A stretch of 36,334 bases of DNA from a virus (IMGVR_UViG_3300048880_000020:1-36334), one strand, 5' to 3'; shown: positions 17,978-33,050, counted from the first letter of the stretch. The notes: generated by a model from the letters alone, not told the origin. A program made the numbers and translations.

Positions 17978-18402
17978 TGTCGTTGCTTACGCCTATTCTG
18001 ATACCAGAATAGCAAGCCCAGTATTACTAGGATACCCATAGCCACTAGGATTGCCGTCAGAGAGCCACCGGGGGCGTCTGAGGGGTTCAGAGACCAGTTC
18101 TTAGACCCACCCCCCAGAAGGTCTCCCTCGGCCTTCAGATCGGCTACAGCGGCCTCTAACTGGTCAACCTGATACTGGAGGGCAGCCTCGTCCGAAGATG
18201 AGTCCCACAGGAAGCCGAAGGCCCCGGTGATAGCAGCCGGTAGGCCCAGAACATAGGCGATGTTGTCCTTGACCTTATCAAGCAAGGACTGTGCTGACTT
18301 TAACTGTTTACCTGCTGATGCCTTTGGTGCTGGGCCGGGAAGGTCTTGGAGGACCTCGTCAATCTTTTGTTTAGCGGTTTGTAGGGATTCTTGGTGACCC
18401 AT
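17974..18402 (-). CDS. Membrane protein with two hydrophobic segments
   Basis: Internal TM, short coiled coil, then C-terminal TM and basic tail (RRKQRQ); GTGA-coupled to the lipoprotein gene. Confidence 0.7.
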   Translation of the reverse strand: MGHQESLQTAKQKIDEVLQDLPGPAPKASAGKQLKSAQSLLDKVKDNIAYVLGLPAAITGAFGFLWDSSSDEAALQYQVDQLEAAVADLKAEGDLLGGGSKNWSLNPSDAPGGSLTAILVAMGILVILGLLFWYQNRRKQRQ

Positions 18403-18436
18403 CGGACACCCCCTCAATCGCTAGGTTTGTACTCCT

Positions 18437-18491: not shown

Positions 18492-18740
18492 ATGGACTTC
18501 GCATACGAAATCCCCTCTGCCACCAAAGTGGTCATATTGGGGAGGGTCATCACAGAACTAGAGCAGGAAATCTTTGAACTCTGCAACCGGCAGGGCATAG
18601 ATGTTTCCACTGTCGGTGCCGATTACGCTGCCCCAGCCGAGTTGGAAGGTGGCGACGGCACCGAGTACAGCATGGAACGGCGTCTCGTGAGTCTGAACAC
18701 ACGTTGCATCGCCGCCAAGGCCGCTAAAGCAGCCCTCTAG
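18492..18740 (+). CDS. Small helical protein (paralog 1 of 3)
   Basis: ATG 18492 with AAGGA; contains LEQEIFELCNRQGID. Confidence 0.75.
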   Translation: MDFAYEIPSATKVVILGRVITELEQEIFELCNRQGIDVSTVGADYAAPAELEGGDGTEYSMERRLVSLNTRCIAAKAAKAAL

Positions 18741-18742: not shown

Positions 18743-18952
18743 ATGGCGCTCACCACAGCACAGGTGACCGCAGCCAAAGCGGAAGCCAAAGAGTACTTGG
18801 AGTACTCCACGCAGGTTCTCTGCCTCGCATTGGGGGTAGACCCCGCTGCCGTCACCGCTTCCTACACCAACCCAGAGGCCAGCGGTACTGAGTTCTACAT
18901 CGCACACGAGTGCCTCAGGAAGCAGTTGGCCGCACTCGGCGCACTGGCATAG
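18743..18952 (+). CDS. Small helical protein (paralog 2 of 3)
   Basis: 2 nt after the previous stop; contains LEYSTQVLCLALGVD. Confidence 0.75.
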   Translation: MALTTAQVTAAKAEAKEYLEYSTQVLCLALGVDPAAVTASYTNPEASGTEFYIAHECLRKQLAALGALA

Positions 18953-18954: not shown

Positions 18955-19197
18955 ATGCCTGACACGGACCAGCAAGACATCGCCAAAGCGGCAGGGAAAG
19001 TTATCCTGTCTGAGCGCATCTTTGACGCCCCTGACGCCACCGAGGGCGACAGCCCTATCGGGTTGTGGCGAGACAACGAAGAAATCCAGTGGAACCCGGA
19101 CCTCGCTGGCTGGGAATACCCATCAGATGGGGCAATGTTCTTCTGTAACCGACTTGATCAAGGTGCGGCCCTACAACAGTTCACCGCAAGGGACTAG
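18955..19197 (+). CDS. Hypothetical protein (80 aa, Trp-rich core)
   Basis: ATG 18955 is 2 nt after the previous stop; tiles the operon. Confidence 0.7.
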   Translation: MPDTDQQDIAKAAGKVILSERIFDAPDATEGDSPIGLWRDNEEIQWNPDLAGWEYPSDGAMFFCNRLDQGAALQQFTARD

Positions 19198-19199
19198 TT

Positions 19200-19505
19200 A
19201 TGCCTTACTCAGCCGCAGATGACCTCACCCAGATTGAGTCTGACCTTGCGAACCTGCTGTTCAGCATTGGTTTGGACTGGGCCGACATCGGCACTATCAC
19301 GATTGATTCCATCCTTGATCGCATCAGGGACAACTACACGATGCAGCCCATGAACATCACCACCCCAGTTGGACGAGGTGAGGCTGGTGGGGCCTACGGG
19401 GTCACCATCGGTGCCGAAGACCACATCAAGACTCAGCATCGGTTGCTGGCACGGATGGCGCGCCAACTGTGGTACAGGCGAAACCTAGCCTTGGGGGTTT
19501 CGTAA
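19200..19505 (+). CDS. Small helical protein (probable paralog 3 of 3)
   Basis: 2 nt after the previous stop; contains IESDLANLLFSIGLD. Confidence 0.7.
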   Translation: MPYSAADDLTQIESDLANLLFSIGLDWADIGTITIDSILDRIRDNYTMQPMNITTPVGRGEAGGAYGVTIGAEDHIKTQHRLLARMARQLWYRRNLALGVS

Positions 19506-20260
19506 TGGCGCATCAGTGGTTTGAGACCAACAAGGTTGTCATGGAACTGAGCAGGGTCGGGGCTTCCTCGTCCAGCCACAACTTGAACTGGAACTCCCAT
19601 TCTGAGGACTTCACCAATGCGGTAGTTGCCCACCATGCGGCAATGAACTCTGACCGGAGAGCCACGGCTATCGGTAATGACCTTGAACTTCACTGGTGGA
19701 CAATGCTCAACAGCAAGGTTGCAGGGTGGGATGCCAACGTGTTCGCATCCGAACTCCGCTTCGTCCTCTTCCAAGAACTAGCCCAAGCAACCAACTACCT
19801 GCTTGCGCTCGCCCAGCCCTCAGAGTGGTTGGTCGAAACGATGAATGACCGCTCCAAGAACGTGACTGTTGTCAACAATGAGTGGCTCTACAACTTTGAG
19901 CAGTTCTTCCTCACTATCCCAGAGATCGCCGCCTACGCGGACACCCAGTACAGCACCGTTGCCGTCCAAGACGTTCTCGCGGGGACAGGTGCGGGCACTT
20001 ACGACTTCATCCAGATCCGCATGAAGGACGTACTGGGAACCAGTACGAAGAAACTAGACGCCTACCTGTCAATGCTTTCGGTAGGCGGGCTGATGCAGAT
20101 TGAGGACTCTGGGTCCTACGGGTCCCTCTATGGCAACCACGCTCAACTGGTGTGGCACCCCTACGCCAAACTGAACCGGCACCTAGTGGCCCAAGACAAC
20201 TTGACTGTCTTCCACCTTGCCACGGATGATGGAACCACCGTCATCAGACGAGACTCGTAA
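19505..20260 (+). CDS. Class I SAM-methyltransferase-like protein, divergent
   Basis: TAATG-coupled. LLALAQP..., YDFIQI, YLSMLSVGGLMQIED and terminal GTTVIRR resemble O-methyltransferase elements, but no glycine-rich motif I is evident. Confidence 0.45.
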   Translation: MAHQWFETNKVVMELSRVGASSSSHNLNWNSHSEDFTNAVVAHHAAMNSDRRATAIGNDLELHWWTMLNSKVAGWDANVFASELRFVLFQELAQATNYLLALAQPSEWLVETMNDRSKNVTVVNNEWLYNFEQFFLTIPEIAAYADTQYSTVAVQDVLAGTGAGTYDFIQIRMKDVLGTSTKKLDAYLSMLSVGGLMQIEDSGSYGSLYGNHAQLVWHPYAKLNRHLVAQDNLTVFHLATDDGTTVIRRDS

Positions 20261-20261
20261 C

Positions 20262-20270
20262 TGCTAACCT
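20262..20270 (+). promoter_or_regulatory. Extended -10 element TGCTAACCT, probably leaderless
   Basis: 6 nt upstream of ATG 20277. Confidence 0.5.
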
Positions 20271-20276
20271 AGAGGC

Positions 20277-21293
20277 ATGTCTCAGACTGACCTTGAGGGC
20301 TGTATCTGGCCGCAGATCCACGTCACTGACGCAGACTGTGAAGTCATCGACGGTTTGGAGTACGAGGATCTAGGCAACGGCGTTATCGTTTTCCGCAATG
20401 TTGTCCAAGTGGATCAGAAGCCTCTCTTTGAATACATTGACGAGTACGCCGTCCACTCCACACCGGGCGTCTACCTCAAGGAGTTTGAGGGTAAGAGTTG
20501 GTGCGAAGACCGGGTCGGGAACAGGATGCCGGTAGAGAACTACTACCAGAACCCTTACCGACTAGGTGGCTTCGGTGACAGCAAACCGGTCATGGAGTCA
20601 ACCCCACCAGCGATGAGGGACTTCTTCTTCCACAACGAACACCAGATTTATATGTGTTTGATGAAGTACATCGACATCTACACCCATGTTCTGAACTCTA
20701 TGTGGTGGAGGTTCCGAGGCAATGTCCTTAAGTACTACAAGGGTGGGCGTATCGGGATGCACAGTGACAACGACACCAGTTACAAGAGCAAAGACGGCCA
20801 ACGGATAGAAACCGACCGGCCCGAAGCCATCTACCAAGTCCTTTCCACCATCACCTACTACAACGACTGTGTAGACACTGAAGAGGAACTAGACGGAACC
20901 AACTTCACAGGCGGGGAAATGTGGTTCCCCTACTTAGACAACCTCACGTACAAGCCAAGAACGGGAGACATCCTGTTCTTCCCCGCCAACTACGTAGGCA
21001 CCCACGGGGTACACGAAATCACTGGCGGTATTCGTTACGACTACCAGTCCGTCTTCGGGCAAGGCCAACACAAGGACCAGCCTTCTCCGTTGATCCCGAT
21101 TTACGAAACCAACCATCCCCCGTGGTGCCAGCCAACGTACCTCCCGTGGCTCCACCAAGACTGGGAGCGCTTCTCTAAATCTGAATACTCCAGATGGAGC
21201 GGACAGCACCCACCCAACAGTGAGATCAACCCCTTGAACCGGCCCCCTGAGGCGAAACCAATCGGACCCGTAATGCGATATGACGAACTTTGA
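20277..21293 (+). CDS. 2OG-Fe(II) oxygenase, prolyl-4-hydroxylase-like (1)
   Basis: LKY..GG.IGMHSD, YYND, GGEMWFP, GDILFFP, THGV and GIRY give HxD...H...R. Confidence 0.88.
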   Translation: MSQTDLEGCIWPQIHVTDADCEVIDGLEYEDLGNGVIVFRNVVQVDQKPLFEYIDEYAVHSTPGVYLKEFEGKSWCEDRVGNRMPVENYYQNPYRLGGFGDSKPVMESTPPAMRDFFFHNEHQIYMCLMKYIDIYTHVLNSMWWRFRGNVLKYYKGGRIGMHSDNDTSYKSKDGQRIETDRPEAIYQVLSTITYYNDCVDTEEELDGTNFTGGEMWFPYLDNLTYKPRTGDILFFPANYVGTHGVHEITGGIRYDYQSVFGQGQHKDQPSPLIPIYETNHPPWCQPTYLPWLHQDWERFSKSEYSRWSGQHPPNSEINPLNRPPEAKPIGPVMRYDEL

Positions 21294-22104
21294 TGCCAGC
21301 ACTCCAGAGATAACTCCAGAAGTAGTAGGCGAGTTACTCCAATACGAGGCGCACCATCTAGGCGGCGGCGTAGTTCACTTCCCCAGCGTTGTTCCTGTCC
21401 CACCAAACCTCCTGCACTGGATCGACCAGAGGGAAGAGGCGGCAACGGCCACACGGTGGACCTACGAAACTGATGCAGACGGGAACACCTACGCTCTAAA
21501 CGAAGATAGAAACCAGTTCCAACTGTACGACGTGGGCGAATCCCCCGTTCGGGTGCATGACCTTGATGGCGGGGAAACCCTCCAACTGTTTGAGGACACC
21601 CTGTATAAATGCGCTCTCAGGTACATCCACATCTTCCCACTGGTCCTAGGGACCCTGTGGTGGCGTTGCAGAGGCCACTTCCTCAAGTATGGCACCGGCT
21701 ATTACATGGGAGTCCACAACGACAACAACACCACATACCGTGTGAGTCAGGGCGAGCGCACCATCCCCCACAGTCAGGTCGCAGCAAGACAGACGATAGC
21801 CCTAGTAGTAACACTCAACGAGGGGTACACAGGTGGGACCTTCAGGTTCCCGTACCTAGACATTGAACTGACTACCAAGACCGGCGACATCCTTATCTTC
21901 CCCGCCAACTTCATGGGTTCCCACGAGGTCACTCCAGTGCTGGAAGGCGACAGGTACTCCTATCTGGAGTTCTACTCCCAAGGGAGTTCCCACCCGGAGA
22001 TAGGCATAGACGTGTCAGAACCAGAGAACCTCAATGCTTGGTACCCGCCACACTGGCTTAACAACATCTTCGACGACTACGCCAAGGTGTCAGCGAGAGA
22101 TTAG
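21280..22104 (+). CDS. 2OG-Fe(II) oxygenase, prolyl-4-hydroxylase-like (2)
   Basis: LKY...MGVHND, LNEGYTGGTFRFP, GDILIFP, SHEVTPVLEGDRY. Confidence 0.88.
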   Translation: MTNFDASTPEITPEVVGELLQYEAHHLGGGVVHFPSVVPVPPNLLHWIDQREEAATATRWTYETDADGNTYALNEDRNQFQLYDVGESPVRVHDLDGGETLQLFEDTLYKCALRYIHIFPLVLGTLWWRCRGHFLKYGTGYYMGVHNDNNTTYRVSQGERTIPHSQVAARQTIALVVTLNEGYTGGTFRFPYLDIELTTKTGDILIFPANFMGSHEVTPVLEGDRYSYLEFYSQGSSHPEIGIDVSEPENLNAWYPPHWLNNIFDDYAKVSARD

Positions 22105-22923
22105 CGGGGGAACCCAGTGCCTGTCGTTGATTGGACCTTCTAACCAAGCGTCCACATGGCCTCTATGTCCTGACGCAGGAGTGCCCTGACAGTAGAACTG
22201 TAAGTAGGAGATGCGCTCCCCCGCAGTAACCGTCTTCACCCCGTGTGCCCCTGTGTAACTGGAGGGGTACATAGCGACCGACCCCGGCCCCAACTTACGG
22301 GTAACCCCAGCGTGTGGGAAGAACAACTCGCCACCCTCACATTCGTCCTTTAACACGATGGCGGTTGTGACGACATTGTGAATGGGAAACTCGGTAACAG
22401 GTCGATCTCCCTCACCAGAGTCCAACCCGAGATTCCACTCATCGTTGCCCCTCTCGTAGTTCTGATCCGAGTGTGGGCCTAGGTTCATACCGGGACCATA
22501 TATGGCGACATGACTCGGGGTTCGCCACCAAATGGAGGTACGGACCTCAGGATACAGACGCATGTACACACGCAGACACTCAGCCAGTAGAGCGTCTATG
22601 CGCTCTACGAAGGCCAAGTCTTCCTCGTTGGCCCCGTGCTTCAACCCCACCAACCGACCGGGAGACTGCATGAACTGCTCTGGAGTGAACTTGTAGCCCC
22701 CGCGATTGATGTAGTTCCCATCTTCGTCAATGATGTATTCCTCGTGCATGTCCGTCCGAACCCGACGGTCGACATACTCCTCAGGTTCCTGTTGCTGCCT
22801 ACGTAGGACCCACCCGTCCAACCACTCTTGGTCTAGTTCAGGTTGGAGGGCATCAGGGAATATGACTAGCCCACAGCCGTGTTGCTCTGGGTCAGTGAGA
22901 TGGGGGCTAACCGGAATACGCAT
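22090..22923 (-). CDS. 2OG-Fe(II) oxygenase, prolyl-4-hydroxylase-like (3)
   Basis: IY.PG..LGPHSD, EGGELFFP, AHGVKTVTAGER. Confidence 0.87.
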   Translation of the reverse strand: MRIPVSPHLTDPEQHGCGLVIFPDALQPELDQEWLDGWVLRRQQQEPEEYVDRRVRTDMHEEYIIDEDGNYINRGGYKFTPEQFMQSPGRLVGLKHGANEEDLAFVERIDALLAECLRVYMRLYPEVRTSIWWRTPSHVAIYGPGMNLGPHSDQNYERGNDEWNLGLDSGEGDRPVTEFPIHNVVTTAIVLKDECEGGELFFPHAGVTRKLGPGSVAMYPSSYTGAHGVKTVTAGERISYLQFYCQGTPASGHRGHVDAWLEGPINDRHWVPPLISR

Positions 22924-23626
22924 CAGTCCACGCCTTGTCTATCCGAGAATACATCTCTGGATTAGGGGGAGCGTTGTCGATGATGAGACGCCGCTTGTAG
23001 TCCTTGGCGTCCTCTGGCGCTATCTCTCCAATGAAGGGGAACACCGCAGGGTCCAGCATGTCCACGATTGTCTGGGACTTGTCGCCGCTCATGTACAAGA
23101 AGCGCACCTCTTGATTTGTGTCAGGGCTATCTACGTTGGGGCCACGAGGGGGGTGGTCTGGCCTATCGGGGCGCAGCGTGCCGGGTGAAGGAGGGTACCC
23201 ATAGATGGCAGCAGACACGAAATCGGCCCCCGCTGCTTCAACGTAGGTTGCCATGCCACGTTCCCACCGGGACTCGGATGGGTCATCAAGGATCGTGTTG
23301 CAGTCAACGTAGATTCCCGTGAACCCTGCCTTCATTACTTCCTCCGCCACGGGGAACTGGGCATCCTCTTGCGGGGTGTCCTTCTGGAAGACAGCAAAGA
23401 CCCCCCGCCCATCACAGATAGACACGACCACGTCAGCGTGCCACACCATCTCTTGGATGCTTCCAACGTCCTCAAACCCGGCTGTTTGCGCTCGGTTGCG
23501 TGTCCGATTGGACCGCCCTTCCGTAGCACAAATCACCGTGTGCCCGTTTGCTGCAAAGGCTTTGCCTAGGGTCAAGCCCATCGTGCCGGGGTGCAGTAGA
23601 CCTACTTTAACTGGGGGGGAAGTCAA
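22907..23626 (-). CDS. NAD(P)-binding oxidoreductase (6PGDH/3-hydroxyisobutyrate dehydrogenase-like N-terminal domain)
   Basis: KVGLLHPGTMG...GRSNRTRNRA..AG, ADVVVSIC, IYVDCN, FVSAAIYGYPP. TTG start with AAGGA upstream. Confidence 0.75.
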   Translation of the reverse strand: MTSPPVKVGLLHPGTMGLTLGKAFAANGHTVICATEGRSNRTRNRAQTAGFEDVGSIQEMVWHADVVVSICDGRGVFAVFQKDTPQEDAQFPVAEEVMKAGFTGIYVDCNTILDDPSESRWERGMATYVEAAGADFVSAAIYGYPPSPGTLRPDRPDHPPRGPNVDSPDTNQEVRFLYMSGDKSQTIVDMLDPAVFPFIGEIAPEDAKDYKRRLIIDNAPPNPEMYSRIDKAWTDAYSG

Positions 23627-24443
23627 GGCTGTAACCGTCCTTCATGTATATGTTTGTGGCCGTCTTAGCCAACTCTGGTTCTTCTCTTGGGTCCACGACG
23701 TTCTCACGCACGTCTGGGTTGGGGGTACCCTGACAGTACCACCCTAAGTAAGTGTAGCGAATGCCTGCCCCCACAGGTTTCACCTCGTGGGCAGCAACGT
23801 AGTTGGAAGGAAAGAACAGAATGTCTCCCTTGCGGGGCTTGTACGTAATCCCCAAGTACTTAAAGTGGTGGTGCCCGTCAGTGAAGTTGGTGCCATCCAA
23901 CTCATCCTCGGAGTCCACACAGTCGTTCAGGTAGGCCACGACGGAAACCACATTTCTGGTTGCCAGTTGGTCCACCGGGTGGGGCTTGCCGTACTCGTAG
24001 TCAGTACTGACATCAGAATGCTTGCCTAGGTATACCCCCGGAGGGTAAGCCACCAGATGGCTCTTGATCTTCCACCAAATGCACTTCCCTGCCAAGGGGA
24101 ACTTGTGGAGGTAATCCCACAGGCAGGCATCTCGGGCAGTTTCAATCATGTCCAAGGCTGTAACCACCTCGGGGCGTGGGTTCTGATGCACGGCTGACCC
24201 ACGCCACGGCATCCTGTCCACGGCGCTCTTAGAGAAGTAGTAACCGCTGCGGTTGATGTACCCCTCCTCCCCTGAGAGTGGGTCAACACCGGGGGTGTAC
24301 ATACCAGCACGCTCTTCAGCGAGCGTCGTCTGGCAGAAGTCTCTCATCCAGTCCCAGTCAAGGGTGAATGCCCCATCGTAGAGAACAACCCCACCGCCTA
24401 GGTGGTCCCCGGTCTTCACGACTCGTGAGATGGGACTAACCAA
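23607..24443 (-). CDS. 2OG-Fe(II) oxygenase, prolyl-4-hydroxylase-like (4)
   Basis: AY.PG.YLGKHSD, YLND, GDILFFPS, AHEVKPVGAGIRY. Confidence 0.88.
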   Translation of the reverse strand: MVSPISRVVKTGDHLGGGVVLYDGAFTLDWDWMRDFCQTTLAEERAGMYTPGVDPLSGEEGYINRSGYYFSKSAVDRMPWRGSAVHQNPRPEVVTALDMIETARDACLWDYLHKFPLAGKCIWWKIKSHLVAYPPGVYLGKHSDVSTDYEYGKPHPVDQLATRNVVSVVAYLNDCVDSEDELDGTNFTDGHHHFKYLGITYKPRKGDILFFPSNYVAAHEVKPVGAGIRYTYLGWYCQGTPNPDVRENVVDPREEPELAKTATNIYMKDGYSLDFPPS

Positions 24444-25234
24444 GCGTCTTCGTGGCCTCCGTGGTACGCCGCCCGATCAAACACCCTTTGACCCTGCTCA
24501 AACCCATCGCTTACCGCATGGGCGAAACGAATGCCGTTGAATATCACCATGTCCCCCTCCAGCCATGAGTACCACCGTTGGTACTCTGGTAGGTACATGA
24601 AGTCCTGAATCCATTGGTTCACAGCAGCAATGTCGCCCGTGGACAGGTCAGGACAGGTTTCAGGGTCCAACCGGTACGGAGGCGTGGTGGTATTGGCATA
24701 CCCCTGAGCGTGTACAACCATCTTGCCAGACATCGGATCTTCCATGAACAGCAGGTGGGGGTGCTGGAGGGTCGGTTCAGGGATGTATGAAACCTGCTCC
24801 TCCAACATGCGTGCGTCCTTCAGGGACTCTTTCCACTCAGCAGGCATCACGTTGTAGCACTCGTGCATATCCACAAAGCCTGTCTGCCCACCCGGCCACT
24901 CTGTGGGCTCGTGAGGCACTTTAAAGGTGTGCATGTTGAGGGCGATTACCTGTGGCAGATGTTCCTTGTAGGTGTCTTCCATGTGCCAAGCCAGAAAGAG
25001 CCCGCCAGACAGGATGGCTGGGTTCTCTACGGCCTGACGAAACCTCGTGCCATGATCTACGTCTTGGGCAACCGGGCTATCGTCCATGCCCAACGCTTGT
25101 GTTACTTCAGTGAACTCGTCACGGATCAGCCCTATCTGACGAAATGCTATGCACCCCTCCGCCAACAGGGCGTCTGTGTACTTAGCAGGGGCTGCGATGA
25201 TTTCCTCTTTAGTGACTCCATTAAACTCAATCAT
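24416..25234 (-). CDS. TauD/TfdA-family 2OG-Fe(II) dioxygenase
   Basis: EGCIAFRQ, WHMED, GGQTGFVDM..CY, HPH, W.EGDMVIFN...AH, RVFDR. Confidence 0.8.
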   Translation of the reverse strand: MIEFNGVTKEEIIAAPAKYTDALLAEGCIAFRQIGLIRDEFTEVTQALGMDDSPVAQDVDHGTRFRQAVENPAILSGGLFLAWHMEDTYKEHLPQVIALNMHTFKVPHEPTEWPGGQTGFVDMHECYNVMPAEWKESLKDARMLEEQVSYIPEPTLQHPHLLFMEDPMSGKMVVHAQGYANTTTPPYRLDPETCPDLSTGDIAAVNQWIQDFMYLPEYQRWYSWLEGDMVIFNGIRFAHAVSDGFEQGQRVFDRAAYHGGHEDAWLVPSHES

Positions 25235-25868
25235 CCCAGTACCTCAAATGCTCTTCGCGGTCGTATAACATTTGTATACTCTCCAAAGTCTTAGATACCA
25301 GTTCTTCTCGGTCGGAGTCGCTCTCCATGTGGTGCATGGATGCGTACAGCACATCTAGTACGCCCTGCAACAGCACGTCCACTGGTGGGGGCTCGGTGAA
25401 CTGGGAAGCCATGTACAGGTGGCCCCAGTCCAGCGGCCTGTCCTCCACCTCAGGGTAGTTTCTCCAGTCAGGGTAGTGCCACCCGTTACCTATATGTCGA
25501 AGTTCTATCGGAGTGTTTATGACCTCTGCTAGTGCCTCTTCACGAGACAGCACGTCCTCACCGTTAAACAATACCCACGCTAGCGAACCGTTGCGGTTGA
25601 ACACCAAGGCCCTGCTGTTCAGGTACTGCTTATGGTATGGGGCTATCTTGGCTGCCCTCAGGGAGCCACTATGGGTTGCTATGGACGAGAACCCCTCTAG
25701 GTGGGCCAGCCTTTCACACAACTCAGCCAAATCTGATGGCAAGTGGCGTGAGAAGTTGTTGTAGCCGACCAGTAGAACCTGCCCCTCGTAAGGCTTGAAC
25801 AGGGGGTCCCCATAAATCCCTCGCGTGTGCGTCCACGGGATGTGATCCCCCTCCTTCATGTGGATCAT
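25227..25868 (-). CDS. Hypothetical protein within the oxygenase cluster
   Basis: 213-aa ORF overlapping both neighbours by a few nt; no motif recognised. Confidence 0.7.
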   Translation of the reverse strand: MIHMKEGDHIPWTHTRGIYGDPLFKPYEGQVLLVGYNNFSRHLPSDLAELCERLAHLEGFSSIATHSGSLRAAKIAPYHKQYLNSRALVFNRNGSLAWVLFNGEDVLSREEALAEVINTPIELRHIGNGWHYPDWRNYPEVEDRPLDWGHLYMASQFTEPPPVDVLLQGVLDVLYASMHHMESDSDREELVSKTLESIQMLYDREEHLRYWDD

Positions 25869-26587
25869 TCGGGCACGTCCAGTATCACGGCACGGTCGGC
25901 CTTGGGTCCGATGCGCTCACCCTTCTCATCCAACCCAGTCCTGATACTCCCCATCCAAGTCCACGGCTGCTCTTGGTTCTGCTTCATCTTGGCTTCCCCA
26001 TACACCTGACGGGCCTTCATCTGCTCAGGCTTGTCCCAGTAGTTCTCCACTTCTAACTCAACCTCAGATAGCAGGTTGTCGTAGTACACCTGAAAGAACA
26101 TGAACGGCATCCCCTTGGGGAAGATCACCGGGGTGTCCTGCTTCGTGATCTTCCAGTTCATGTTCCACTCATCAGGCCACCAGTGCGTGGGGATGGTCGC
26201 CGTCAGGGGCACCGCCCCATCCACAAAGTAGTTAGGGGACCCTGAGATCCAAGTACTAACCCCCGGTGGGGTGCGGACGGACCACCCAGTCTCAAACGAC
26301 ATGATCCCGATGATGCTGGGAGTAACAACTGTTCTGGTGTACTCGTGGCCGTCCGTAGTATGTGTCATCTTCTCACCCGACAGCACTCGTGGTACCGTGT
26401 TACCCCCGTCCCATTGGACTACCACGTCCTGCTGTAACTGCATCTCCCAACCGTGAGTGTTGGCAGTCGTCATCGGCAGGCACTTATAGGCGTGCTTGTT
26501 GTAGGTGTCGTCCATCCAGTCTCTCCGTGGGCGGGACTGTGCAATCACGGGTGGATTCTGGTGGGTGCGGGTCAGAGTCACTTTCAC
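25865..26587 (-). CDS. DUF6065-like protein
   Basis: RDWMD...HAYKCLPMTTANTHGW, RTPPG...SGSPNYF, T.WWP...MNWKIT, FPKGMPF. Confidence 0.7.
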   Translation of the reverse strand: MKVTLTRTHQNPPVIAQSRPRRDWMDDTYNKHAYKCLPMTTANTHGWEMQLQQDVVVQWDGGNTVPRVLSGEKMTHTTDGHEYTRTVVTPSIIGIMSFETGWSVRTPPGVSTWISGSPNYFVDGAVPLTATIPTHWWPDEWNMNWKITKQDTPVIFPKGMPFMFFQVYYDNLLSEVELEVENYWDKPEQMKARQVYGEAKMKQNQEQPWTWMGSIRTGLDEKGERIGPKADRAVILDVPE

Positions 26588-27255
26588 AATGTGGTGATCT
26601 GGCCGCTAGCCACCGAAGGCGTCGGGGGGGCTTCGTCCTGATGGTTGCGGTCGTTGTAGTCGTACATCGTGACCGCCGAATACTTGGTGCCCTTCGTCAC
26701 CGGCAGAGAAGCGTGGGCATAAACGAAGGTCGACGGGTGTACCAACACGTCACCGAACTCGGGCAAGAAGTTCATGTTCTGGTAGGGCATGTGAAGCGCA
26801 CCGCCCTCATAACCATCATTGATGTAACCAATAGCAGAGACGGTTGCAGAGTAAGAGAACCCGTGGTCTGCATGGACAGCAAAGTGCTGACCTTCCCGGT
26901 ACCTGACGAAGTTCGTTGCCTCCTCAAACTCCAACTGCAAGTTGTAGAGCCTTGAGTAGTGTTCCACACACTCCCGTACCCCTGTGATTACCTCTTCGTA
27001 GACCTTGGCCGCTTCCGCAAACCCGGTCGGGCAGGTCTCAAGATCAGAAGCCCGCATCTTGAAGTCGGAACAATCCCGGTAGTCGGGCATCTCTTCCATG
27101 TCCCCAACGAGGGCCTTCTTCCACGAGTAGTACGCATCTTCACTGCCCCCGATACAGCCTTCCAACCTCTCAACAAAGTTGGAATCGTCAGGCCACACAT
27201 GCTTGAAGAGGGCGATACCTGATGCGGGATGACCGCAATACCCTGCGTATTCCAC
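26584..27255 (-). CDS. 2OG-Fe(II) oxygenase, prolyl-4-hydroxylase-like (5)
   Basis: VRYREGQHFAVHAD, YINDGYEGG, YAHASLPVTKGTKY; GTG start with AGGAG. Confidence 0.88.
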   Translation of the reverse strand: MEYAGYCGHPASGIALFKHVWPDDSNFVERLEGCIGGSEDAYYSWKKALVGDMEEMPDYRDCSDFKMRASDLETCPTGFAEAAKVYEEVITGVRECVEHYSRLYNLQLEFEEATNFVRYREGQHFAVHADHGFSYSATVSAIGYINDGYEGGALHMPYQNMNFLPEFGDVLVHPSTFVYAHASLPVTKGTKYSAVTMYDYNDRNHQDEAPPTPSVASGQITTL

Positions 27256-27256
27256 G

Positions 27257-27889
27257 TTATTCTCCTGTATCAGTAACGGTGTAGAACGACGGTGTGGTCC
27301 ACCGTACTCCTGAGGTCACGGGTTTGACTCCGTGTAGGTAGTGGACATCACCGGGGTGCGCCACCACCATACCCGGTTCTATCTCCAGTTCTATGCCATG
27401 CTCCGGGTAGTAGAACTGCCCACCCTCAAAGTCCCCGTTCCAGTAGATGATTGAGTTTAGGTCATACGTCGGGAACGGGTTAGGACTGCCGTCGTTGAGT
27501 TGCTTGTCGGCGTGGGGGGACTGCTCACAACCGGGAAGCCATCGGATAAGGACCGGGGGTCGGCTGGAGACGGTAACCCCGAACTTGTCTTCAAGGGCTG
27601 ATCGCATCTTATAGATGTACCTGTCGATCAAGCCGTAGACGAACGGAGCGGTCCTCTTGAGGATGTCTCCACTGCACATGCGATCCCACCAGTACGAGGC
27701 GTCATAAATGCACTCTCCCTCCTCGTTGTACTCAGTCTCTCGGGGGTTCGACCACTCTTTGATGAGTGGCATGAACGCCTGCATGATCTCCAGATCAGGG
27801 GGGCTGACGAAGTCACGGAGAACCACGATATTGTCAGAGGTGGTCCCAAAGTAACCCGGCCCGGTCAATGACTCTTCCACAGTCAGCAT
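27257..27889 (-). CDS. 2OG-Fe(II) oxygenase, prolyl-4-hydroxylase-like (6)
   Basis: IRWLPG..QSPHAD, YWNGDFEGGQFYYP, YLHGVKPVTSGVRW. Confidence 0.88.
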   Translation of the reverse strand: MLTVEESLTGPGYFGTTSDNIVVLRDFVSPPDLEIMQAFMPLIKEWSNPRETEYNEEGECIYDASYWWDRMCSGDILKRTAPFVYGLIDRYIYKMRSALEDKFGVTVSSRPPVLIRWLPGCEQSPHADKQLNDGSPNPFPTYDLNSIIYWNGDFEGGQFYYPEHGIELEIEPGMVVAHPGDVHYLHGVKPVTSGVRWTTPSFYTVTDTGE

Positions 27890-27898
27890 CCTAGCAGA

Positions 27899-28846
27899 CT
27901 ACACCAAGGCGGTGATGTCCTCCAGCAGGTCATCACGTTGCTTGGCGATCATCGCAGCCTGAGTTGGAGTAGGCCAGCCCAGACCCCACGCATTCATTGG
28001 GTCTACATACGTCGCCTTGTAGTGCTCCCACATCTCGGCTGGGATCAGGTCAACGTCGTGCATCCCTCGGGGCATGTCATACCGGGTGCCGTCTGGCTGA
28101 AACTTAGCGAAAGGTACCCCAGTGGCAGGGTCCACCATGTCTACGTAGATCCCATGCTCGTCTATCTCACCAGACAGAAAGCCATTGTGGTACCGGCGCA
28201 CCACCGTTCCAGTTCGGTCCACAAGGAACTTCTCCATGTGACCGGGGACCGGTCCCCACCCCGGCTTGGTCACATCTGCGTATTTGATTTTCGGGTCCTC
28301 GGCCCAATCGTTATTCTCCCGATGGTGAGGCATACCGTTCGCCTCCAGCGGGATCTTGTCTCCTTCGGTTATCTTGAACCAGAACGGGTGTGGTTCCTGC
28401 TCTTTAACTGAACCTCTAGCCCATGTGGGGTCGTACATGCGCCAATCTTTGTCGTACCGGGCGTTGGTCAACTCGGAGAACTGGTAGGTCACCCCGAACT
28501 CTTCACGTCCGTACCGTTCGGCCACCTGACCGGGTGTCAACTCCTCGCCAGTCTCCTCTTTCAACTTGCAGGCATACGCTTCCAGCCCCTCTCCGAACTC
28601 AGGGAGGTTGTGTCGTGGGAAGTCGTCTACCACGACGATTACTACATTGAAGTCCTCGTCAGGGAAAGACTCGTGTATCTCCTGCAACACCTCGTGTTGG
28701 GTGATGTTCCCACACCCGGCAGCACAGTTGGCGAACAGGGTCACCTTGCCCTTGAACTGCTCTAAGAAGTCTTCTGCCCCATCGGCATGGCTCATACGGA
28801 AGTCGTAGAGCGACTGGTCCAGCGTAAGCGGTTCTACGGTAGTCAT
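27899..28846 (-). CDS. Glutathione-peroxidase-like (thioredoxin-fold) protein, divergent
   Basis: LEQFKGKVTLFANCAAGCG...QHEVLQEIHE, FGVTYQF, HPFW and EKFLVDRTGTVVRRY align by eye with the GPx/BtuE consensus. Confidence 0.75.
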   Translation of the reverse strand: MTTVEPLTLDQSLYDFRMSHADGAEDFLEQFKGKVTLFANCAAGCGNITQHEVLQEIHESFPDEDFNVVIVVVDDFPRHNLPEFGEGLEAYACKLKEETGEELTPGQVAERYGREEFGVTYQFSELTNARYDKDWRMYDPTWARGSVKEQEPHPFWFKITEGDKIPLEANGMPHHRENNDWAEDPKIKYADVTKPGWGPVPGHMEKFLVDRTGTVVRRYHNGFLSGEIDEHGIYVDMVDPATGVPFAKFQPDGTRYDMPRGMHDVDLIPAEMWEHYKATYVDPMNAWGLGWPTPTQAAMIAKQRDDLLEDITALV

Positions 28847-28848
28847 GC

Positions 28849-29601
28849 CTAGATTTTACCATCTGCTTGTTTCTGGTGCCACCGATACATCCTCTTACGT
28901 CGGAATGTCTCAAAGCCACCCCAGCCTACGCCCCGGTTCTTAATCATCGGGAACATCCGAGCGTCCCCCATAGTAACTGTTTTTACCTTTCCTGTATTAC
29001 TCCTCTTGAACGGGATCAAGTGATACACCGGAGTTCCAGCCGGAATGATGAACTCCTCGTCAGTTAGCACACGGAAGGTCAAGTTCACCCTATGGAAGTA
29101 GTCCGTGTTCACCACTGTCGGCAGTACCTGATACCGGCTATCTGGCTCATACAGAACCGGCAAAGCCAACAGAGAATAGCCGGGAGCAGTTTTGTACAGA
29201 AACGGTGACCTCAAATCTGGGCACCCAGCATGTTCCATTGGGGTGTCCTCCATCATCGGGCAGCCCTGCACCGCTTCCCGTGGAAACTGTGTCGTAGTGA
29301 AGAAGGGATCAGCCATCGCTGCGGCTACACCACCCCCCTCTGTCGGATGCACCTTCACATCTCCCCAAAGAGGGACAGTGATGCCTAGAGAAAGGAAGTC
29401 CTGTATCCCCTTACAGTTTTTAATGCTGACCTCAACCTTGGGTGCCCTCTTGAACCACTCAGGCCAACCCGTTGAGTTCCGAAACGGAGGGTGCTCCAAC
29501 AGACGGTCATCCTTAGGTATCACCAGTATCTCATCGGGCTTGACCTTGGGCCAGTCCCCATAGAACCGCATCTTGTCAACCCCGGTTACACGCTTGTCCA
29601 T
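28849..29601 (-). CDS. DUF6065-related protein (second copy, different subfamily)
   Basis: PEWFK...SIKNCKGIQDFLSLGITVPLWGD, KTAPGYSLL, VVNTDYF, IPAGTPVYHLIPFKR. Confidence 0.55.
   Translation of the reverse strand: MDKRVTGVDKMRFYGDWPKVKPDEILVIPKDDRLLEHPPFRNSTGWPEWFKRAPKVEVSIKNCKGIQDFLSLGITVPLWGDVKVHPTEGGGVAAAMADPFFTTTQFPREAVQGCPMMEDTPMEHAGCPDLRSPFLYKTAPGYSLLALPVLYEPDSRYQVLPTVVNTDYFHRVNLTFRVLTDEEFIIPAGTPVYHLIPFKRSNTGKVKTVTMGDARMFPMIKNRGVGWGGFETFRRKRMYRWHQKQADGKI
28853..28861 (-). promoter_or_regulatory. Extended -10 element TGGTAAAAT, probably leaderless
   Basis: 6 nt upstream of ATG 28846; no clear SD sequence. Confidence 0.55.
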
Positions 29602-29610
29602 TCTCCCAGT

Positions 29611-30048
29611 CTACTCAAAGTGGGGAGGGAAGTGTGGCGGGAAGTGTGGCGGGAAGAACGGTGGGAAGAATGGCGGGAAGAATGGCGGGAAATGGGGTGG
29701 GAAGAACGGTGGGAAGAATGGCGGGAAGAACGGTGGGAAGTGTGGCGGGAAGTGTGGCGGGAAGAACGGTGGGAAGTGGGGAGGAAAGTGAGGTGGGAAG
29801 TGGGGAGGGAAATACGGGCTGTAGTAGACGTAAGCGATGTCTTCCTTGAGCGGGTAAACCGTTCCCGCAGCAGGAGTCTGAGAAGCAACAGTGTTCTCTA
29901 CCTGCGACCCAGTAGCGTTAGTAGTGCTGGTTGATCCCTTGTCGAACCCGGCAGACGTAATCTGAGAGTCGGCGTTAGTGGTCGTCTGCCCAACGATGTT
30001 GGGGACATCGTCCTTTCTAGGACCAGTTCTACCTTCGGTTTCAGCCAT
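29611..30048 (-). CDS. PASTA-domain protein with a C-terminal (PP[H/F]F)16 tail
   Basis: VPNIVGQT...A...I..AGF...NTVASQTPAAGT matches the PASTA pattern. Residues 81-144 are 16 tetrapeptide repeats. No signal peptide; starts 2 nt after the fibre-gene stop. Confidence 0.85.
   Translation of the reverse strand: MAETEGRTGPRKDDVPNIVGQTTTNADSQITSAGFDKGSTSTTNATGSQVENTVASQTPAAGTVYPLKEDIAYVYYSPYFPPHFPPHFPPHFPPFFPPHFPPHFPPFFPPFFPPFFPPHFPPFFPPFFPPFFPPHFPPHFPPHFE
29617..29808 (-). repeat. 12-bp-period coding tandem repeat, 16 units (9 PPHF, 7 PPFF)
   Basis: Plus-strand units such as gaagtgtggcgg, gaagaacggtgg and gaagaatggcgg. Differences are synonymous in the minus frame except the His/Phe switch. Confidence 0.95.
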
Positions 30049-30050: not shown

Positions 30051-33050
30051 TTATGCCTCAAGGTCTCCGACGAGAACCCACTCATCTGTATCAATCTTAA
30101 TACAAGTTACCGATGAATACTGCGCCCTCAACTTTAGGCCCGGTGTATAACGCAATGTTACACCAGATCCAGCAGCCATTGTGATTTCGCCAGCACCCAA
30201 ACCAATAACCTGAATCTGTGTACCAACAGCGAAAGCGACACCACTGTTTGGTGGAACCGTGACAGTCTGCGCCGATCCGTTGTTCATGGTCACATACTTG
30301 CCACGGTCACCAGCCACAAAGGTGTAAGTGGTACCAGTCTGTGTTTCACGGGCGAGGTTGTAAATGACGTTACCCGTGACATCCAGAGCATTGGCGTCAA
30401 GGACGGCTCGCTCGGTACCGGCAACATCGAACCTGATCTTGTCCTCATCTGAGGACTCTTCGACCTGAATCTTCGTATCGCCGTCAGCATCAGAAACAGA
30501 GTCGCTGCTGAGAGCGCCCAGTTCTGTCTGGACGTAAGCCGTGGTGGCAACCTGTGTGGTGTTCGTATCTGCCGCCGCAGTCGGAGCAGCCGGAACACCA
30601 GTAAGGGTCGGTGAGGCTAGGGGAGCGTAGTCGCCAACCTCTGTCATCACGAATGCGGTAGTGGCGACCTTGGTTGAACTGTCATTCGCAGACTGAGTTG
30701 TAGCGATAACTCCATCGGCCAGAACAACGGTAGCCGCAAGAGCATTCTTGGACAGTTGAATGACACCGTCTATGTAGACGCTCTTGCCAGTAGCGAGGGC
30801 GACGTGCTCAGAGGATGTCCAAGCGTCTGTGGCGTTCACCCAGTTCCACGTCTTATCCGAGGCACCCTTCAGGGTAATGCCACCACCATCAGCGGTGGTG
30901 TCACTTGGGGAAGCAACAGACCCGATTTCGATGTTCTTGTCATCAACGGTGAGTGTTGTTGAGTTAACAGTAGTAGTGGTTCCGTTGACGGTCAGATCAC
31001 CGACGATGGTGACCACGCCAGTAGCCCCAATCGACATGCGCTCCGTACCAGCGGTATCGAAACGGATGATGTCCTCGTCAGACCCTTCCTCAACTTGGAT
31101 CTTGGTGTCGCCATCGGCATCAGTGATTGAGTCACTGCTTAGGGCAGCCAACTCAGTCTGAACATAGGCGGTCGTGGCAACCTGTGTGGTATTGGTATCC
31201 GCTGCCGCCGTTGGAGCAGCAGGAACACCAGTGAACGTCGGAGAGGCCAAATAGGCGACCGTGCCACTAGCGTCTTGGAATGTGACCGTCCTATCCGCTG
31301 TGGGGTCCGTGACCGTAAGAGTGGTCTCAAAGTCATTCGCCGTTGCGCCCTCAACAACAATGGACGCACCAGACACGTTGACCAACGGGGTTGTAAGGGA
31401 GGTTGTGATAGTGACAGCGTTAGGGAGACCAACAGTCACGGCTGCCGTCTCTGAGCCGGAGCCAGAAACATCAACCTCGTTGGCGGTGCCCGCAACGGTA
31501 GCGACGTAGTTACCAGAGGTGTGTGTCCCAAGGGTTGCTGCGACCGTTAGGTCTACCGCTCCGTCCCCGGCGTCATCATAGGCGGCTGTTAGGCCGACGT
31601 GAGTACCGTTCGTGACAATCTGGGCACCCGTGATGTCTTGGACGTTCTCTGTGATAAGGGCAAGATCAATGGCCCCATCGCCAGCGTCGTCATACGTCGC
31701 GGTGATGCCCGTATGGGAACCGTTGGTAGCCAACTGAGCGCCAGAAATGTCCTGAACATTCTCCGTGACGAGAGCCAAGTCGATAGCGCCATCACCGGCA
31801 TCATCGTAAGCAGCGGTGATGCCGGTATGGGTGCCATTGGTAGCGAGTTGTGCGCCAGAGACATCCTGAACAGCCTCAGCGAAGTCTGTGACTGCCGTAG
31901 AGGGAATGGCGATGGTCGTATTAGAGGCGGCTGTCAAACGACCGTAGGTGTCAACCGTGTAGCCGGGGGCCTGCGTAGCACTCCCATAAGAAGCGGCAGA
32001 AACCCCTGAAGCAGTAAGTGTCAAGTCGATAGCACCATCGCCACCGTCGTCGTAAGAGGCAGATATTCCTGTGTGCGAGCCGTTAGTCGCAACCTGTGCG
32101 CCTGATACGTCCTGCACTGCTTCTGTGAAGTCCGTGACGGCAGTAGATGGGATGGCGATTGTAGTATTTGACGCTGTTGTCAGGTGTCCCGTTGCATCAA
32201 CAGTGTATCCGGGGACCTGAGTGGCGCTGCCATAAGAGGCAGCCGAAACACCAGAAGCATCGTGGTTAATAGTGTTACCAGTAATCGTTAGTTCCGTACC
32301 GGCGGTAAACGCCTGTGTACCAGTGAACTGCGTGAACGTGATGGAGTGGGTTCCAACAGTGTGCGGGTCAGACGTGGAGGTGACCACAAAGCCTTGACCG
32401 GCATTTGTAGACCCAGCCAGCACATACACAGACTCACCAGATTTGATCTGACCAGTCGGAGTTCCATCGAAGTCATCGACGCGGGTCAGGAGCCAAACGG
32501 CTGAACCCGAAGCACCCTGAGCGGTCACATCATAAATACCGTTCTGAGCAGCGGTTGACTGATCCTGTACAAGAACACGATCACCAGTGGTGGCGTTCAC
32601 CCCATCGACAACAAGACGAACCTGTGTTGATGTGGTTAGAGTCGCCCCGACACCAGAAGAGCCATTGCTGTAAGACGGTGTGTTGGGCAGAGCCGCCACC
32701 GAAGCCAGTTTGACCGCTTCATGCCAGTTAACGATGCTTTCCTGAGCAGCCCACGATACGCCGCCAGCAGCGGCACTGTCAGCAACAAGCATCTGGCCGT
32801 TAGTTCCTACTGTAAGTATTCCGGGCGTGTTGTCTGCCGTGCCAACAATGAGATCGCCCTTGGCATCAATCAGATGCTTGCTGATGTCCCCCAAACCGCC
32901 ATAACCAAGAGAGGTCCATGCGGTTGATCCGTCGCCAATCTTGTACTTCTCGTTATCGGATTCATACCCGATTTCCCCGACAGCCATCGTGGGGTTATTA
33001 GAAGTCCAGTTCGCTGCCGTGTCTCTGCGAAATTGAATGATTGCTGCCAT
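30051..33050 (-). CDS. Long tail/virion fibre protein (999 aa)
   Basis: N-terminal IQFRRDTAANW..NP..GEIG...KIGDG (Mtd-N/hyaluronidase-type anchor), AKGDLIVGT, GDRVLVQDQ...NGIY, SPTFTGVPAAPTA...TQVATTAYV and DADGDTKIQVEE modules. Confidence 0.85.
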   Translation of the reverse strand: MAAIIQFRRDTAANWTSNNPTMAVGEIGYESDNEKYKIGDGSTAWTSLGYGGLGDISKHLIDAKGDLIVGTADNTPGILTVGTNGQMLVADSAAAGGVSWAAQESIVNWHEAVKLASVAALPNTPSYSNGSSGVGATLTTSTQVRLVVDGVNATTGDRVLVQDQSTAAQNGIYDVTAQGASGSAVWLLTRVDDFDGTPTGQIKSGESVYVLAGSTNAGQGFVVTSTSDPHTVGTHSITFTQFTGTQAFTAGTELTITGNTINHDASGVSAASYGSATQVPGYTVDATGHLTTASNTTIAIPSTAVTDFTEAVQDVSGAQVATNGSHTGISASYDDGGDGAIDLTLTASGVSAASYGSATQAPGYTVDTYGRLTAASNTTIAIPSTAVTDFAEAVQDVSGAQLATNGTHTGITAAYDDAGDGAIDLALVTENVQDISGAQLATNGSHTGITATYDDAGDGAIDLALITENVQDITGAQIVTNGTHVGLTAAYDDAGDGAVDLTVAATLGTHTSGNYVATVAGTANEVDVSGSGSETAAVTVGLPNAVTITTSLTTPLVNVSGASIVVEGATANDFETTLTVTDPTADRTVTFQDASGTVAYLASPTFTGVPAAPTAAADTNTTQVATTAYVQTELAALSSDSITDADGDTKIQVEEGSDEDIIRFDTAGTERMSIGATGVVTIVGDLTVNGTTTTVNSTTLTVDDKNIEIGSVASPSDTTADGGGITLKGASDKTWNWVNATDAWTSSEHVALATGKSVYIDGVIQLSKNALAATVVLADGVIATTQSANDSSTKVATTAFVMTEVGDYAPLASPTLTGVPAAPTAAADTNTTQVATTAYVQTELGALSSDSVSDADGDTKIQVEESSDEDKIRFDVAGTERAVLDANALDVTGNVIYNLARETQTGTTYTFVAGDRGKYVTMNNGSAQTVTVPPNSGVAFAVGTQIQVIGLGAGEITMAAGSGVTLRYTPGLKLRAQYSSVTCIKIDTDEWVLVGDLEA
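31548..32260 (-). repeat. Internal fibre repeats: four ExVQDxxGAQxxTNGxHxGxxAxYDDxGDGAxDL units and two ASGVSAASYGSATQxPGYTVD units
   Basis: Read directly from the translation; boundaries approximate. Confidence 0.85.

What the first reader, a model, noticed from the sequence alone, without database searches (positions are those of the whole stretch)
19505..30048. Candidate new system: phage hydroxylase array beside a dedicated Pro/His/Phe-repeat substrate
Seen: directly downstream of a protein with 16 PP[H/F]F repeats lie six P4H-like 2OG-Fe(II) oxygenases with intact HxD...H triads, a TauD-like enzyme, two DUF6065-like proteins, a GPx-like protein, an NAD(P)-binding protein and an MTase-like protein, tightly packed. 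Known: P4H-fold enzymes hydroxylate Pro-rich polyproline-II substrates, and aquatic phages often carry unexplained 2OG-oxygenase arrays near fibre genes. Inference: this is a precursor-plus-tailoring (RiPP-like) cassette that modifies Pro, His or Phe of the repeat, probably on a fibre-associated protein. No protease, transporter or glycosyltransferase is evident in the cluster, which favours a modified protein over a released peptide. Novelty is unverified.
Basis: partly seen in the sequence, partly recalled or inferred. Interest (0 to 1): 0.9.

Follow-up and report, generated by a model that had tools for sequence, protein, structure and literature searches.

The report
Phage fibre-tip repeat with collagen-type hydroxylases
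An uncultured phage, likely of actinobacteria, encodes right behind its tail-fibre gene a small protein ending in 16 Pro-Pro-(His/Phe)-Phe units, followed by a bank of iron oxygenases that nearly always travels with such repeats in related phages and likely hydroxylates them, which would give a testable substrate for long-unexplained phage oxygenase arrays.

Summary
The repeat (16 units, synonymous codons vary) sits on a PASTA domain directly behind the fibre gene. All six oxygenases keep HxD...H...R/K. The cluster is two convergent arms and extends to 18492.

Linkage is strong: 30 of 31 distinct enzyme lineages with enough upstream DNA carry a repeat; 44 of 61 repeat loci carry the core trio (27257, 26584, DUF6065). 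Close relatives lack both and have Gly-rich fibre-tip genes there. The two core oxygenases best match prolyl 3- and prolyl 4-hydroxylases. DUF6065 has a dUTPase fold and, in 13 of 17 longer homologues, a cupin/JmjC partner domain.

Best reading (0.5): the cassette hydroxylates the Pro-Pro of a fibre-tip protein; it is not a RiPP.

Against: no chemistry is shown; one lineage keeps intact enzymes without a repeat; 13 of 61 repeat loci lack the core; His/Tyr content tracks enzymes only by descent; PBCV-1 virions showed no hydroxyproline.

The array type is in print (Iyer 2010); the repeat pairing was not found in my searches. This scan reported the same system before on other genomes.

The parts
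30051..33050 (-). Tail-fibre-like protein (999 aa); its C-terminal domain is the one that precedes repeat genes
   Evidence: Mtd_N E 1.7e-12; phrog_7032 tail fiber E 2.9e-18; this C-terminal domain is followed by a PPxF gene in 108 of 143 distinct cases in a set biased towards such loci
29611..30048 (-). PASTA-(PP[HF]F)16 protein, candidate substrate and fibre-tip component
   Evidence: 53 related viral loci
29857..30009 (-). PASTA domain (residues 14-64)
   Evidence: PF03793 E 1.6e-6, over cut-off
29617..29808 (-). 16 Pro-Pro-(His/Phe)-Phe units
   Evidence: count and codon variation
28849..29601 (-). DUF6065 paralogue with the conserved Cys (accessory)
   Evidence: phrog_7084 E 2.5e-23; Cys aligns with DUF6065 Cys36; fold not modelled
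27899..28846 (-). Glutathione-peroxidase-like protein, Cys retained at the GPx catalytic position (by eye)
   Evidence: PF00255 E 4.5e-8; NF007900 E 7.6e-11, far below cut-off; family alignment
27257..27889 (-). Core oxygenase 1, closest solved relative prolyl 3-hydroxylase 1
   Evidence: invariant H126 D128 H186 R196 in 45 sequences; profile vs PDB best 8k0e E 2.4e-8
26584..27255 (-). Core oxygenase 2, closest solved relative the bacterial prolyl 4-hydroxylase of PDB 3itq/5hv0
   Evidence: invariant H128 D130 H181 K191 in 46 sequences; profile vs PDB best E 1.1e-7
25865..26587 (-). Core DUF6065 protein: dUTPase fold, invariant Cys36, dUTPase motifs not evident
   Evidence: PF19541 E 1.8e-42; model pLDDT 88; Foldseek and VIA Z 10.5, rmsd 5.8, 129 aligned
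25227..25868 (-). Unknown protein, fused behind a TauD domain in relatives
   Evidence: no family hit; atlas best 0.77; 12 relatives, 6 of them 518-598 aa with the match at the C-terminus; TauD on L120:10532-12118
24416..25234 (-). TauD-like 2OG dioxygenase
   Evidence: PF02668 E 1.6e-17; HxE84 and H242 region; no PDB sequence hit at E 0.01
23607..24443 (-). 2OG-Fe(II) oxygenase (frequent accessory)
   Evidence: PF13640 E 1.7e-10; triad intact
22907..23626 (-). Rossmann-like NAD(P)-binding protein (weak call)
   Evidence: PF03807 E 7.6e-4, under cut-off; relatives give similar weak hits
22090..22923 (-). 2OG-Fe(II) oxygenase, last gene of the - arm
   Evidence: PF13640 E 3e-6; triad intact
21280..22104 (+). 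2OG-Fe(II) oxygenase, last gene of the + arm
   Evidence: PF13640 E 5.9e-10; Tet_JBP E 1.9e-4 well under cut-off; triad intact
20277..21293 (+). 2OG-Fe(II) oxygenase
   Evidence: PF13640 E 7.9e-5; triad intact
19505..20260 (+). O-methyltransferase-fold protein (CCoAOMT/COMT/TrmR-like) without an evident SAM-binding Gly motif
   Evidence: model pLDDT 86.7; Foldseek best 5kva E 1.5e-8, 5zw3 E 2.0e-8; family alignment
19200..19505 (+). Small conserved ORF (101 aa), function unknown
   Evidence: homologues in cassette loci
18955..19197 (+). Small ORF, homologues in a few cassette loci
   Evidence: cluster 40; start read
18743..18952 (+). Small conserved ORF (69 aa), the commonest of the four
   Evidence: cluster in 58 non-deduplicated loci; alignment of 31
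18492..18740 (+). Small ORF, first of the + arm; resembles the other small ORFs by eye
17974..18417 (-). Conserved flanking gene outside the cassette; marks its boundary
   Evidence: follows fibre modules directly in cassette-free relatives L224, L486-L491

Best explanation
This is a swappable tail-fibre cassette in which a PASTA domain carrying a Pro-Pro-x-Phe tail follows the fibre gene, and a linked core of two prolyl-hydroxylase-like oxygenases plus DUF6065 likely hydroxylates the prolines of that tail. Shown: anatomy, intact metal ligands, two-way linkage, presence/absence as a block, nearest solved relatives. Inferred: the repeat protein docks on the fibre's C-terminal domain as a tip component. 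Inferred: 26584-27255 (Lys at the 2OG site, as in P4H; recalled) 4-hydroxylates one Pro and 27257-27889 (P3H-like) hydroxylates the neighbour, as on collagen Pro-Hyp (recalled). Inferred: DUF6065 acts as a non-dUTPase partner and the GPx-like protein handles peroxide from uncoupled turnover. The variable outer enzymes (four more oxygenases, TauD, Rossmann, MTase fold) would add lineage-specific tailoring or act on other fibre proteins; that part has no direct support. The product would be a modified virion protein that tunes adsorption or stability, not a released peptide.
For: Enzyme to repeat: 30 of 31 clusters (90% identity) of the 26584 orthologue with at least 6.5 kb upstream carry a repeat, from 148 loci in 53 clusters. 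Repeat to enzyme: 44 of 61 pattern-found loci with at least 5 kb downstream hold all three core genes. The link persists across different gene orders and carrier domains. About 1200 stored stretches in a 2.9-million-contig collection match the pattern (tool estimate). Block presence/absence: L486-L491 (flank gene 91-95% identical) show neither repeat nor core in the DNA held; L486, L488 and L490, read gene by gene, carry Gly-rich modules; L224 joins fibre and flank gene directly. Best PDB matches are P3H1 (E 2.4e-8) and bacterial P4H (E 1.1e-7). The 26584 orthologue lies directly upstream of DUF6065 in 107 of 132 cases and within 2.5 kb in 22 more. 13 of 17 longer DUF6065 homologues also carry PF13621 (a JmjC-type cupin, name recalled) and 2 of 17 a sulfotransferase. 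The x position is Phe, Tyr or His in 2485 of 2657 units.
Against: No chemistry is shown. One lineage (L164, L167-L171) keeps the full array with intact ligands beside Gly-rich fibre genes and has no PPxF or similar repeat in a 105-kb record that is about 50% complete. 13 of 61 repeat loci have none of the core within the flanks; in five such records only one held DUF6065. His content tracks TauD (24 of 25 against 11 of 34) but along one clade split: 3 changes, independent pairs not significant; no His-specific oxygenase family appeared in the third lineage. PDB matches are weak and cover the catalytic core only; PiuC/PKHD and lysyl hydroxylase also score. For PBCV-1, attempts to detect hydroxyproline in virions failed (PMC7019647, passage). 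Linkage could reflect co-transfer of neighbours. Virion location of the repeat protein is inferred from gene order only.
Confidence: 0.5

Rival explanations
1. The array is a general fibre-maturation kit: it modifies or helps fold other fibre or tip proteins, and the PPxF tail is an unmodified polyproline stalk that merely sits in the same swappable module.
For: Intact array beside Gly-rich tips without a repeat. Repeats without the core, several lying between two folded domains like a linker. A second small array (two oxygenases, Trp halogenase, DUF6065 paralogue) lies upstream of the fibre genes in L201-L207.
Against: Gly-rich modules in the window's closest relatives come without the array. 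The repeat is terminal, within 12 residues of the C-terminus, in 130 of 177 distinct tails. The repeat-less case is a single lineage of 31.
Confidence: 0.24
2. The enzymes make a small amino-acid- or lipid-derived metabolite in the infected cell, as Iyer et al. proposed for the Syn9 array; the repeat is a bystander.
For: PMC2938197 (section 12 read) proposes this. Relatives add carbamoyltransferase, thioesterase, WS/DGAT, P450, Trp halogenase, SDR and sulfotransferase genes. TauD and O-MTase folds usually act on small molecules (recalled).
Against: No scaffold-building synthetase appeared among the 83 plus 30 neighbours scanned. The core matches peptidyl hydroxylases. Position is fixed behind the fibre gene.
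Confidence: 0.13
3. The cassette modifies nucleotides, DNA or RNA (oxidised, O-methylated bases).
For: Two dUTPase-fold-type proteins. The tRNA methyltransferase TrmR is the second Foldseek hit of the MTase-fold protein. Weak Tet_JBP hit on 21280 (E 1.9e-4).
Against: dUTPase motifs are not evident in DUF6065 and the SAM motif is not evident in the MTase fold (by eye against recalled motifs). Tet_JBP score 21 against cut-off 34.9. The cassette lies among tail genes and varies with the fibre tip.
Confidence: 0.07
4. A loose island of auxiliary genes with unrelated roles, linked only by descent in a hypervariable region.
For: Outer genes vary widely in number, order and strand. Complete relatives have a few more such oxygenases elsewhere.
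Against: The core trio and its adjacency persist across distant lineages and rearrangements, and it is lost as a block.
Confidence: 0.06

Closest known systems
Tandem dioxygenase array of Synechococcus phage Syn9 (Iyer et al. 2010, PMC2938197; passages and section 12 read, supplements not read)
   Same: Many tandem 2OG-Fe(II) oxygenases plus a dUTPase-fold protein with a conserved cysteine; Trp halogenases occur in some relatives.
   Different: No substrate was named for the phage array in what I read; a metabolite was proposed. Here a repeat protein is linked. No JmjC gene or halogenase in this window. DUF6065 found no match among annotated phages, so identity with their protein rests on fold and Cys only.
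Bacterial hydroxylase/sulfotransferase operons with collagen-like or tail-collar proteins as proposed substrates (same paper)
   Same: Idea that co-encoded repeat or tail proteins are substrates of linked 2OG hydroxylases.
   Different: Different enzyme families and a Gly-X-Y repeat; bacterial; no sulfotransferase in this window.
Chlorovirus PBCV-1 prolyl 4-hydroxylase (PDB 5c5t; review PMC7019647, passages read)
   Same: Viral P4H-fold enzyme that hydroxylates Pro-containing peptides; 5c5t scores E 0.0096 against the 26584 profile.
   Different: One enzyme in an algal virus; hydroxyproline was not detected in virions. Here an array with an adjacent aromatic Pro-Pro repeat in a bacteriophage.
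Collagen prolyl 3- and 4-hydroxylases (PDB 8k0e, 3itq/5hv0)
   Same: Best solved matches of the two core oxygenases; metal ligands intact.
   Different: Similarity is limited to the catalytic core; the repeat has no Gly-X-Y; activity untested.
Gp38 fibre-tip adhesins of Straboviridae (PMC12032242, abstract read)
   Same: Separate small gene behind the fibre gene; the Gly-rich alternatives in relatives recall gp38's glycine-rich motifs (recalled).
   Different: No sequence relation tested; PASTA/FN3 plus PPxF instead; gp38 has no linked oxygenases that I know of.

Membership tests
RiPP cluster | Short precursor with leader (or follower) peptide and core | tested here: not met
   N-terminus is a PASTA domain, FN3 arrays up to about 700 aa in relatives
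RiPP cluster | Protease or transporter releasing a product | tested here: not met
   none among window genes or the recurrent neighbours scanned; Hint-like ends on 5 of 177 tails by pattern only
RiPP cluster | Co-encoded enzymes modify the ribosomal product | not testable with these tools
   linkage only
2OG-Fe(II) oxygenase, PF13640 | Profile hit and HxD...H...R/K | tested here: met
   six hits, four over cut-off; ligands aligned
Peptidyl prolyl 4-/3-hydroxylase | Nearest solved relatives are prolyl hydroxylases | tested here: met
   (E 2.4e-8 and 1.1e-7; core only)
Peptidyl prolyl 4-/3-hydroxylase | Hydroxylates peptidyl proline | not testable with these tools
   needs assay
Syn9-type tandem dioxygenase array | Tandem classical 2OG oxygenases of several families | tested here: met
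   six PF13640 plus TauD
Syn9-type tandem dioxygenase array | dUTPase-fold protein with conserved Cys | tested here: met
   direct homology to the Syn9 protein not shown
Syn9-type tandem dioxygenase array | JmjC gene and Trp halogenases | tested here: not met
   no such hit in the window; halogenase in L205
dUTPase | Fold | tested here: met
   VIA Z 10.5, rmsd 5.8, 129 aligned
dUTPase | Catalytic motifs | tested here: not met
   no dUTPase profile hit; motifs not evident by eye (motifs recalled)
Class I SAM-dependent O-methyltransferase | Fold | tested here: met
   Foldseek E 1.5e-8, TMq 0.5-0.58
Class I SAM-dependent O-methyltransferase | Gly-rich SAM-binding motif I | tested here: not met
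   not evident in 16 displayed rows of the 31-sequence alignment
TET/JBP DNA-modifying system | Tet_JBP domain over cut-off | tested here: not met
   21.2 bits against 34.9
PASTA domain | Profile over cut-off | tested here: met
   28.4 bits against 23.2; ligand binding untested
Gp38-like tip adhesin | Binds the fibre tip and the host receptor | not tested
   gene order only

The most novel reading that the evidence does not exclude
A phage-encoded, collagen-like maturation line: a P4H-type and a P3H-type enzyme convert each Pro-Pro pair, and the outer oxygenases add beta-hydroxy-His/Phe (or catechols), turning the tail into a densely oxidised metal-binding or adhesive rod on the virion. This would be a widespread multi-enzyme oxidative modification of phage particles and the first assigned role for DUF6065.
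Probability: 0.15. Interest if true: 0.9.

Novelty: new variant of a known kind. Interest (0 to 1): 0.65.

Why it matters
Tandem 2OG-oxygenase arrays in aquatic phages were described in 2010 without a substrate (PMC2938197) and are often filed as auxiliary metabolic genes. This cassette names a candidate substrate, a minimal three-gene core and a natural negative (close relatives without the cassette), so one co-expression and mass-spectrometry experiment can test it. If true, phages mature their own fibre tips with collagen-type chemistry, many such genes are assembly genes rather than host-metabolism genes, and the enzymes are new peptide hydroxylases.

Tried and rejected
Residue-enzyme covariation as proof of substrate: raw associations are strong but follow one clade split and G+C content; His and Tyr codons differ by one base; independent pairs cannot reach significance. 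An apparent His-specific oxygenase in the third lineage proved to be the closest relative of one in His-free loci.

DNA-level repeat function: rejected, codons vary synonymously.

Cellular origin: of 48 stretches in bacterial/archaeal genomes, only L248, L258, L265/L280, L268 and L270 carry long phage-type repeats with cassette genes, all on MAG contigs; these look like binned phage DNA (inference).

Glycosylation as the next step: PF00534 in 0 of 5 and PF00535 in 2 of 5 related records, neither in complete G013 and G014; only two families tested.

Identity of 25227-25868: unresolved. TauD has no PDB sequence hit. Promoter/terminator scan at chance level. No RNA holder was listed. One small-ORF entry (18956-19194) was out of frame and is disregarded; searches cover that ORF.

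Paper searches with no hit: DUF6065; phage/RiPP/oxygenase/proline-rich repeat; phage/tail fiber/hydroxylation terms; repeat words; CGG frameshift terms. Most subscription papers are not in the library.
Full report
Context. The window is a tailed-phage fragment with major capsid, portal and terminase genes. The capsid protein is 59-60% identical to those of Streptomyces phages pSt2308 and BRock, and 4 of 5 related records, including all 3 that are at least 90% complete (137-268 kb), encode WhiB. The host is therefore likely an actinobacterium (inference).

Observation. The protein at 29611-30048 has a PASTA domain (E 1.6e-6) and 16 PP[HF]F units whose codons vary synonymously, so the repeat is kept at protein level. 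It starts 2 nt after the 999-aa fibre gene. Downstream on the same strand are a DUF6065 paralogue, a GPx-like protein, two oxygenases, DUF6065, an unknown, TauD, an oxygenase, a Rossmann-like protein and another oxygenase. A + strand arm of four small ORFs, an MTase-fold protein and two oxygenases converges on it. All six PF13640 proteins keep HxD...H...R/K. The cassette runs from 18492 to 30048.

Linkage. A search with the repeat protein gave 53 viral loci, most followed by the same enzymes. Searching from the enzymes (best 80 of 326 and best 80 of 99 hits), 25 of 25 and 27 of 29 loci with at least 8 kb upstream carry a repeat; these sets overlap. After clustering at 90% identity, 30 of 31 clusters with at least 6.5 kb upstream carry it; 22 of 53 clusters were dropped for lack of flank. 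A pattern scan independent of the PASTA domain covered 7 of 64 parts of the collection and fetched flanks for 80 of 122 stretches. Of these 80, 7 failed my repeat filter and 12 had under 5 kb downstream; of the other 61, 44 hold all three core genes, 4 hold one or two and 13 hold none. The core is 27257, 26584 and DUF6065; all else varies. Carriers of the repeat range from PASTA to FN3 arrays, some with Cys-rich or Hint-like ends seen by eye.

Block behaviour. Among 31 loci found with the upstream structural gene 33060, six that read through show repeat and enzymes, three end in or just after the repeat, six show neither, and the rest are truncated or unclear (L202 read with its overlap L058). 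Among 15 loci found with the downstream flank gene, the six closest (91-95%) show neither; three of them read gene by gene carry Gly-rich modules (phrog_2295) behind fibre genes. The fibre's C-terminal domain is followed by a PPxF gene in 108 of 143 distinct cases, a Gly-rich gene in 5 and something else in 30; the set is biased towards repeat loci. I infer that the repeat protein is a swappable fibre-tip component, comparable in position to gp38 adhesins (PMC12032242, abstract).

Enzymes. Profiles of the two core oxygenases match P3H1 best (E 2.4e-8) and a bacterial P4H best (E 1.1e-7); lysyl hydroxylase and PiuC score lower. The second has an invariant Lys where P4H binds 2OG (motif recalled). 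DUF6065 models well as a dUTPase fold with an invariant Cys and no evident dUTPase motifs. It follows the P4H-like gene directly in 107 of 132 cases, and 13 of 17 longer homologues carry a JmjC-type cupin domain (family name recalled). The 19505 protein has a catechol-O-methyltransferase-like fold but no evident SAM motif, so it may be inactive.

Against. One lineage keeps the array with intact ligands and has no Pro-aromatic repeat in 105 kb of an incomplete record. Thirteen repeat loci lack the core nearby; of five repeat records without a nearby core, searched whole, one held DUF6065, beside a second, variant repeat. Repeat composition follows enzyme content only along the tree. For the nearest viral precedent, hydroxyproline was not detected in virions (PMC7019647, passage). 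No binding or activity was computed.

Mechanism. Most likely (0.5), the core hydroxylates Pro-Pro in the tail of a fibre-tip protein during assembly, with 4- then 3-type chemistry by analogy to collagen. Rivals: general fibre-maturation kit with an unmodified stalk (0.24), small metabolite (0.13), nucleic acid or nucleotide (0.07), loose island (0.06).

Known versus new. Iyer et al. (PMC2938197; passages and section 12 read; supplements not read and may bear on family identity) described the Syn9 array with a dUTPase-fold cysteine protein and proposed metabolites, and separately proposed collagen-like or tail-collar proteins as substrates in bacterial operons. The PPxF repeat and DUF6065 were not found in five searches (one search gave two listings, not read). 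Searches were seen as listings, apart from the three papers named. RiPP membership fails on leader and release. Earlier notes of this scan report the same pairing on other genomes; one led me to the Iyer paper. Verdict: new variant of a known kind, interest 0.65, because it makes a long-open question directly testable while the chemistry is unshown.

Noticed in passing
L015, L017, L018, L021, L029, L031, L044, L046, L149, L154, L156, L161, L172, L175, L177 and others (repeat genes); L151 about 2330; L174 about 6977 and 8278: In an AT-rich lineage the repeat gene changes frame by +1 at an in-frame CGG, at different positions in different sub-lineages; reading CGGN as one Gly step opens 37 of 48 non-deduplicated repeat genes tested, 9 are open without it, 2 had no start under my rule. 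In-frame CGG is 0-2 per 1100-2700 codons in intact genes there; three more shifts near a CGG appeared, two in L174. Suggests +1 recoding at CGG. The window itself uses CGG normally (37 in frame).
   Followed up: partly
L201, L203, L205-L207, upstream of the fibre genes (L205:3641-7202): A second small array: two oxygenases, a tryptophan halogenase (E 2.4e-97) and a DUF6065 paralogue, close to the Syn9 description.
   Followed up: no
window 18492-19505: Four small ORFs that resemble each other by eye (helix, LG[IV]D-like turn, helix) and travel with the cassette; no family hit.
   Followed up: partly
window 14294-17977: 1227-aa protein with a lipoprotein-like signal (by eye), a Pro/Thr linker and a very acidic Glu/Trp-rich tract; no Pfam or PHROG hit; conserved next to the 17974 gene in relatives.
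   Followed up: no
L290, L305, L330, L347, L351, L355: Repeat proteins ending in a Hint-like domain (by eye), suggesting self-cleavage after the repeat.
   Followed up: no
L169:11539-14083, L022:7799-9280, L008:12920-13498: Phage-borne WS/DGAT acyltransferase and cytochrome P450, carbamoyltransferase, and 4HBT thioesterase inside related arrays.
   Followed up: no
L486, L488, L490: Closest relatives carry two or three tandem fibre plus Gly-rich-tip modules at the site of the cassette.
   Followed up: partly
L295:4966-9089, L302: A repeat protein followed by a different set: DUF6171, two DUF6065 paralogues, sulfotransferase, Asp/Asn beta-hydroxylase and methyltransferase.
   Followed up: no
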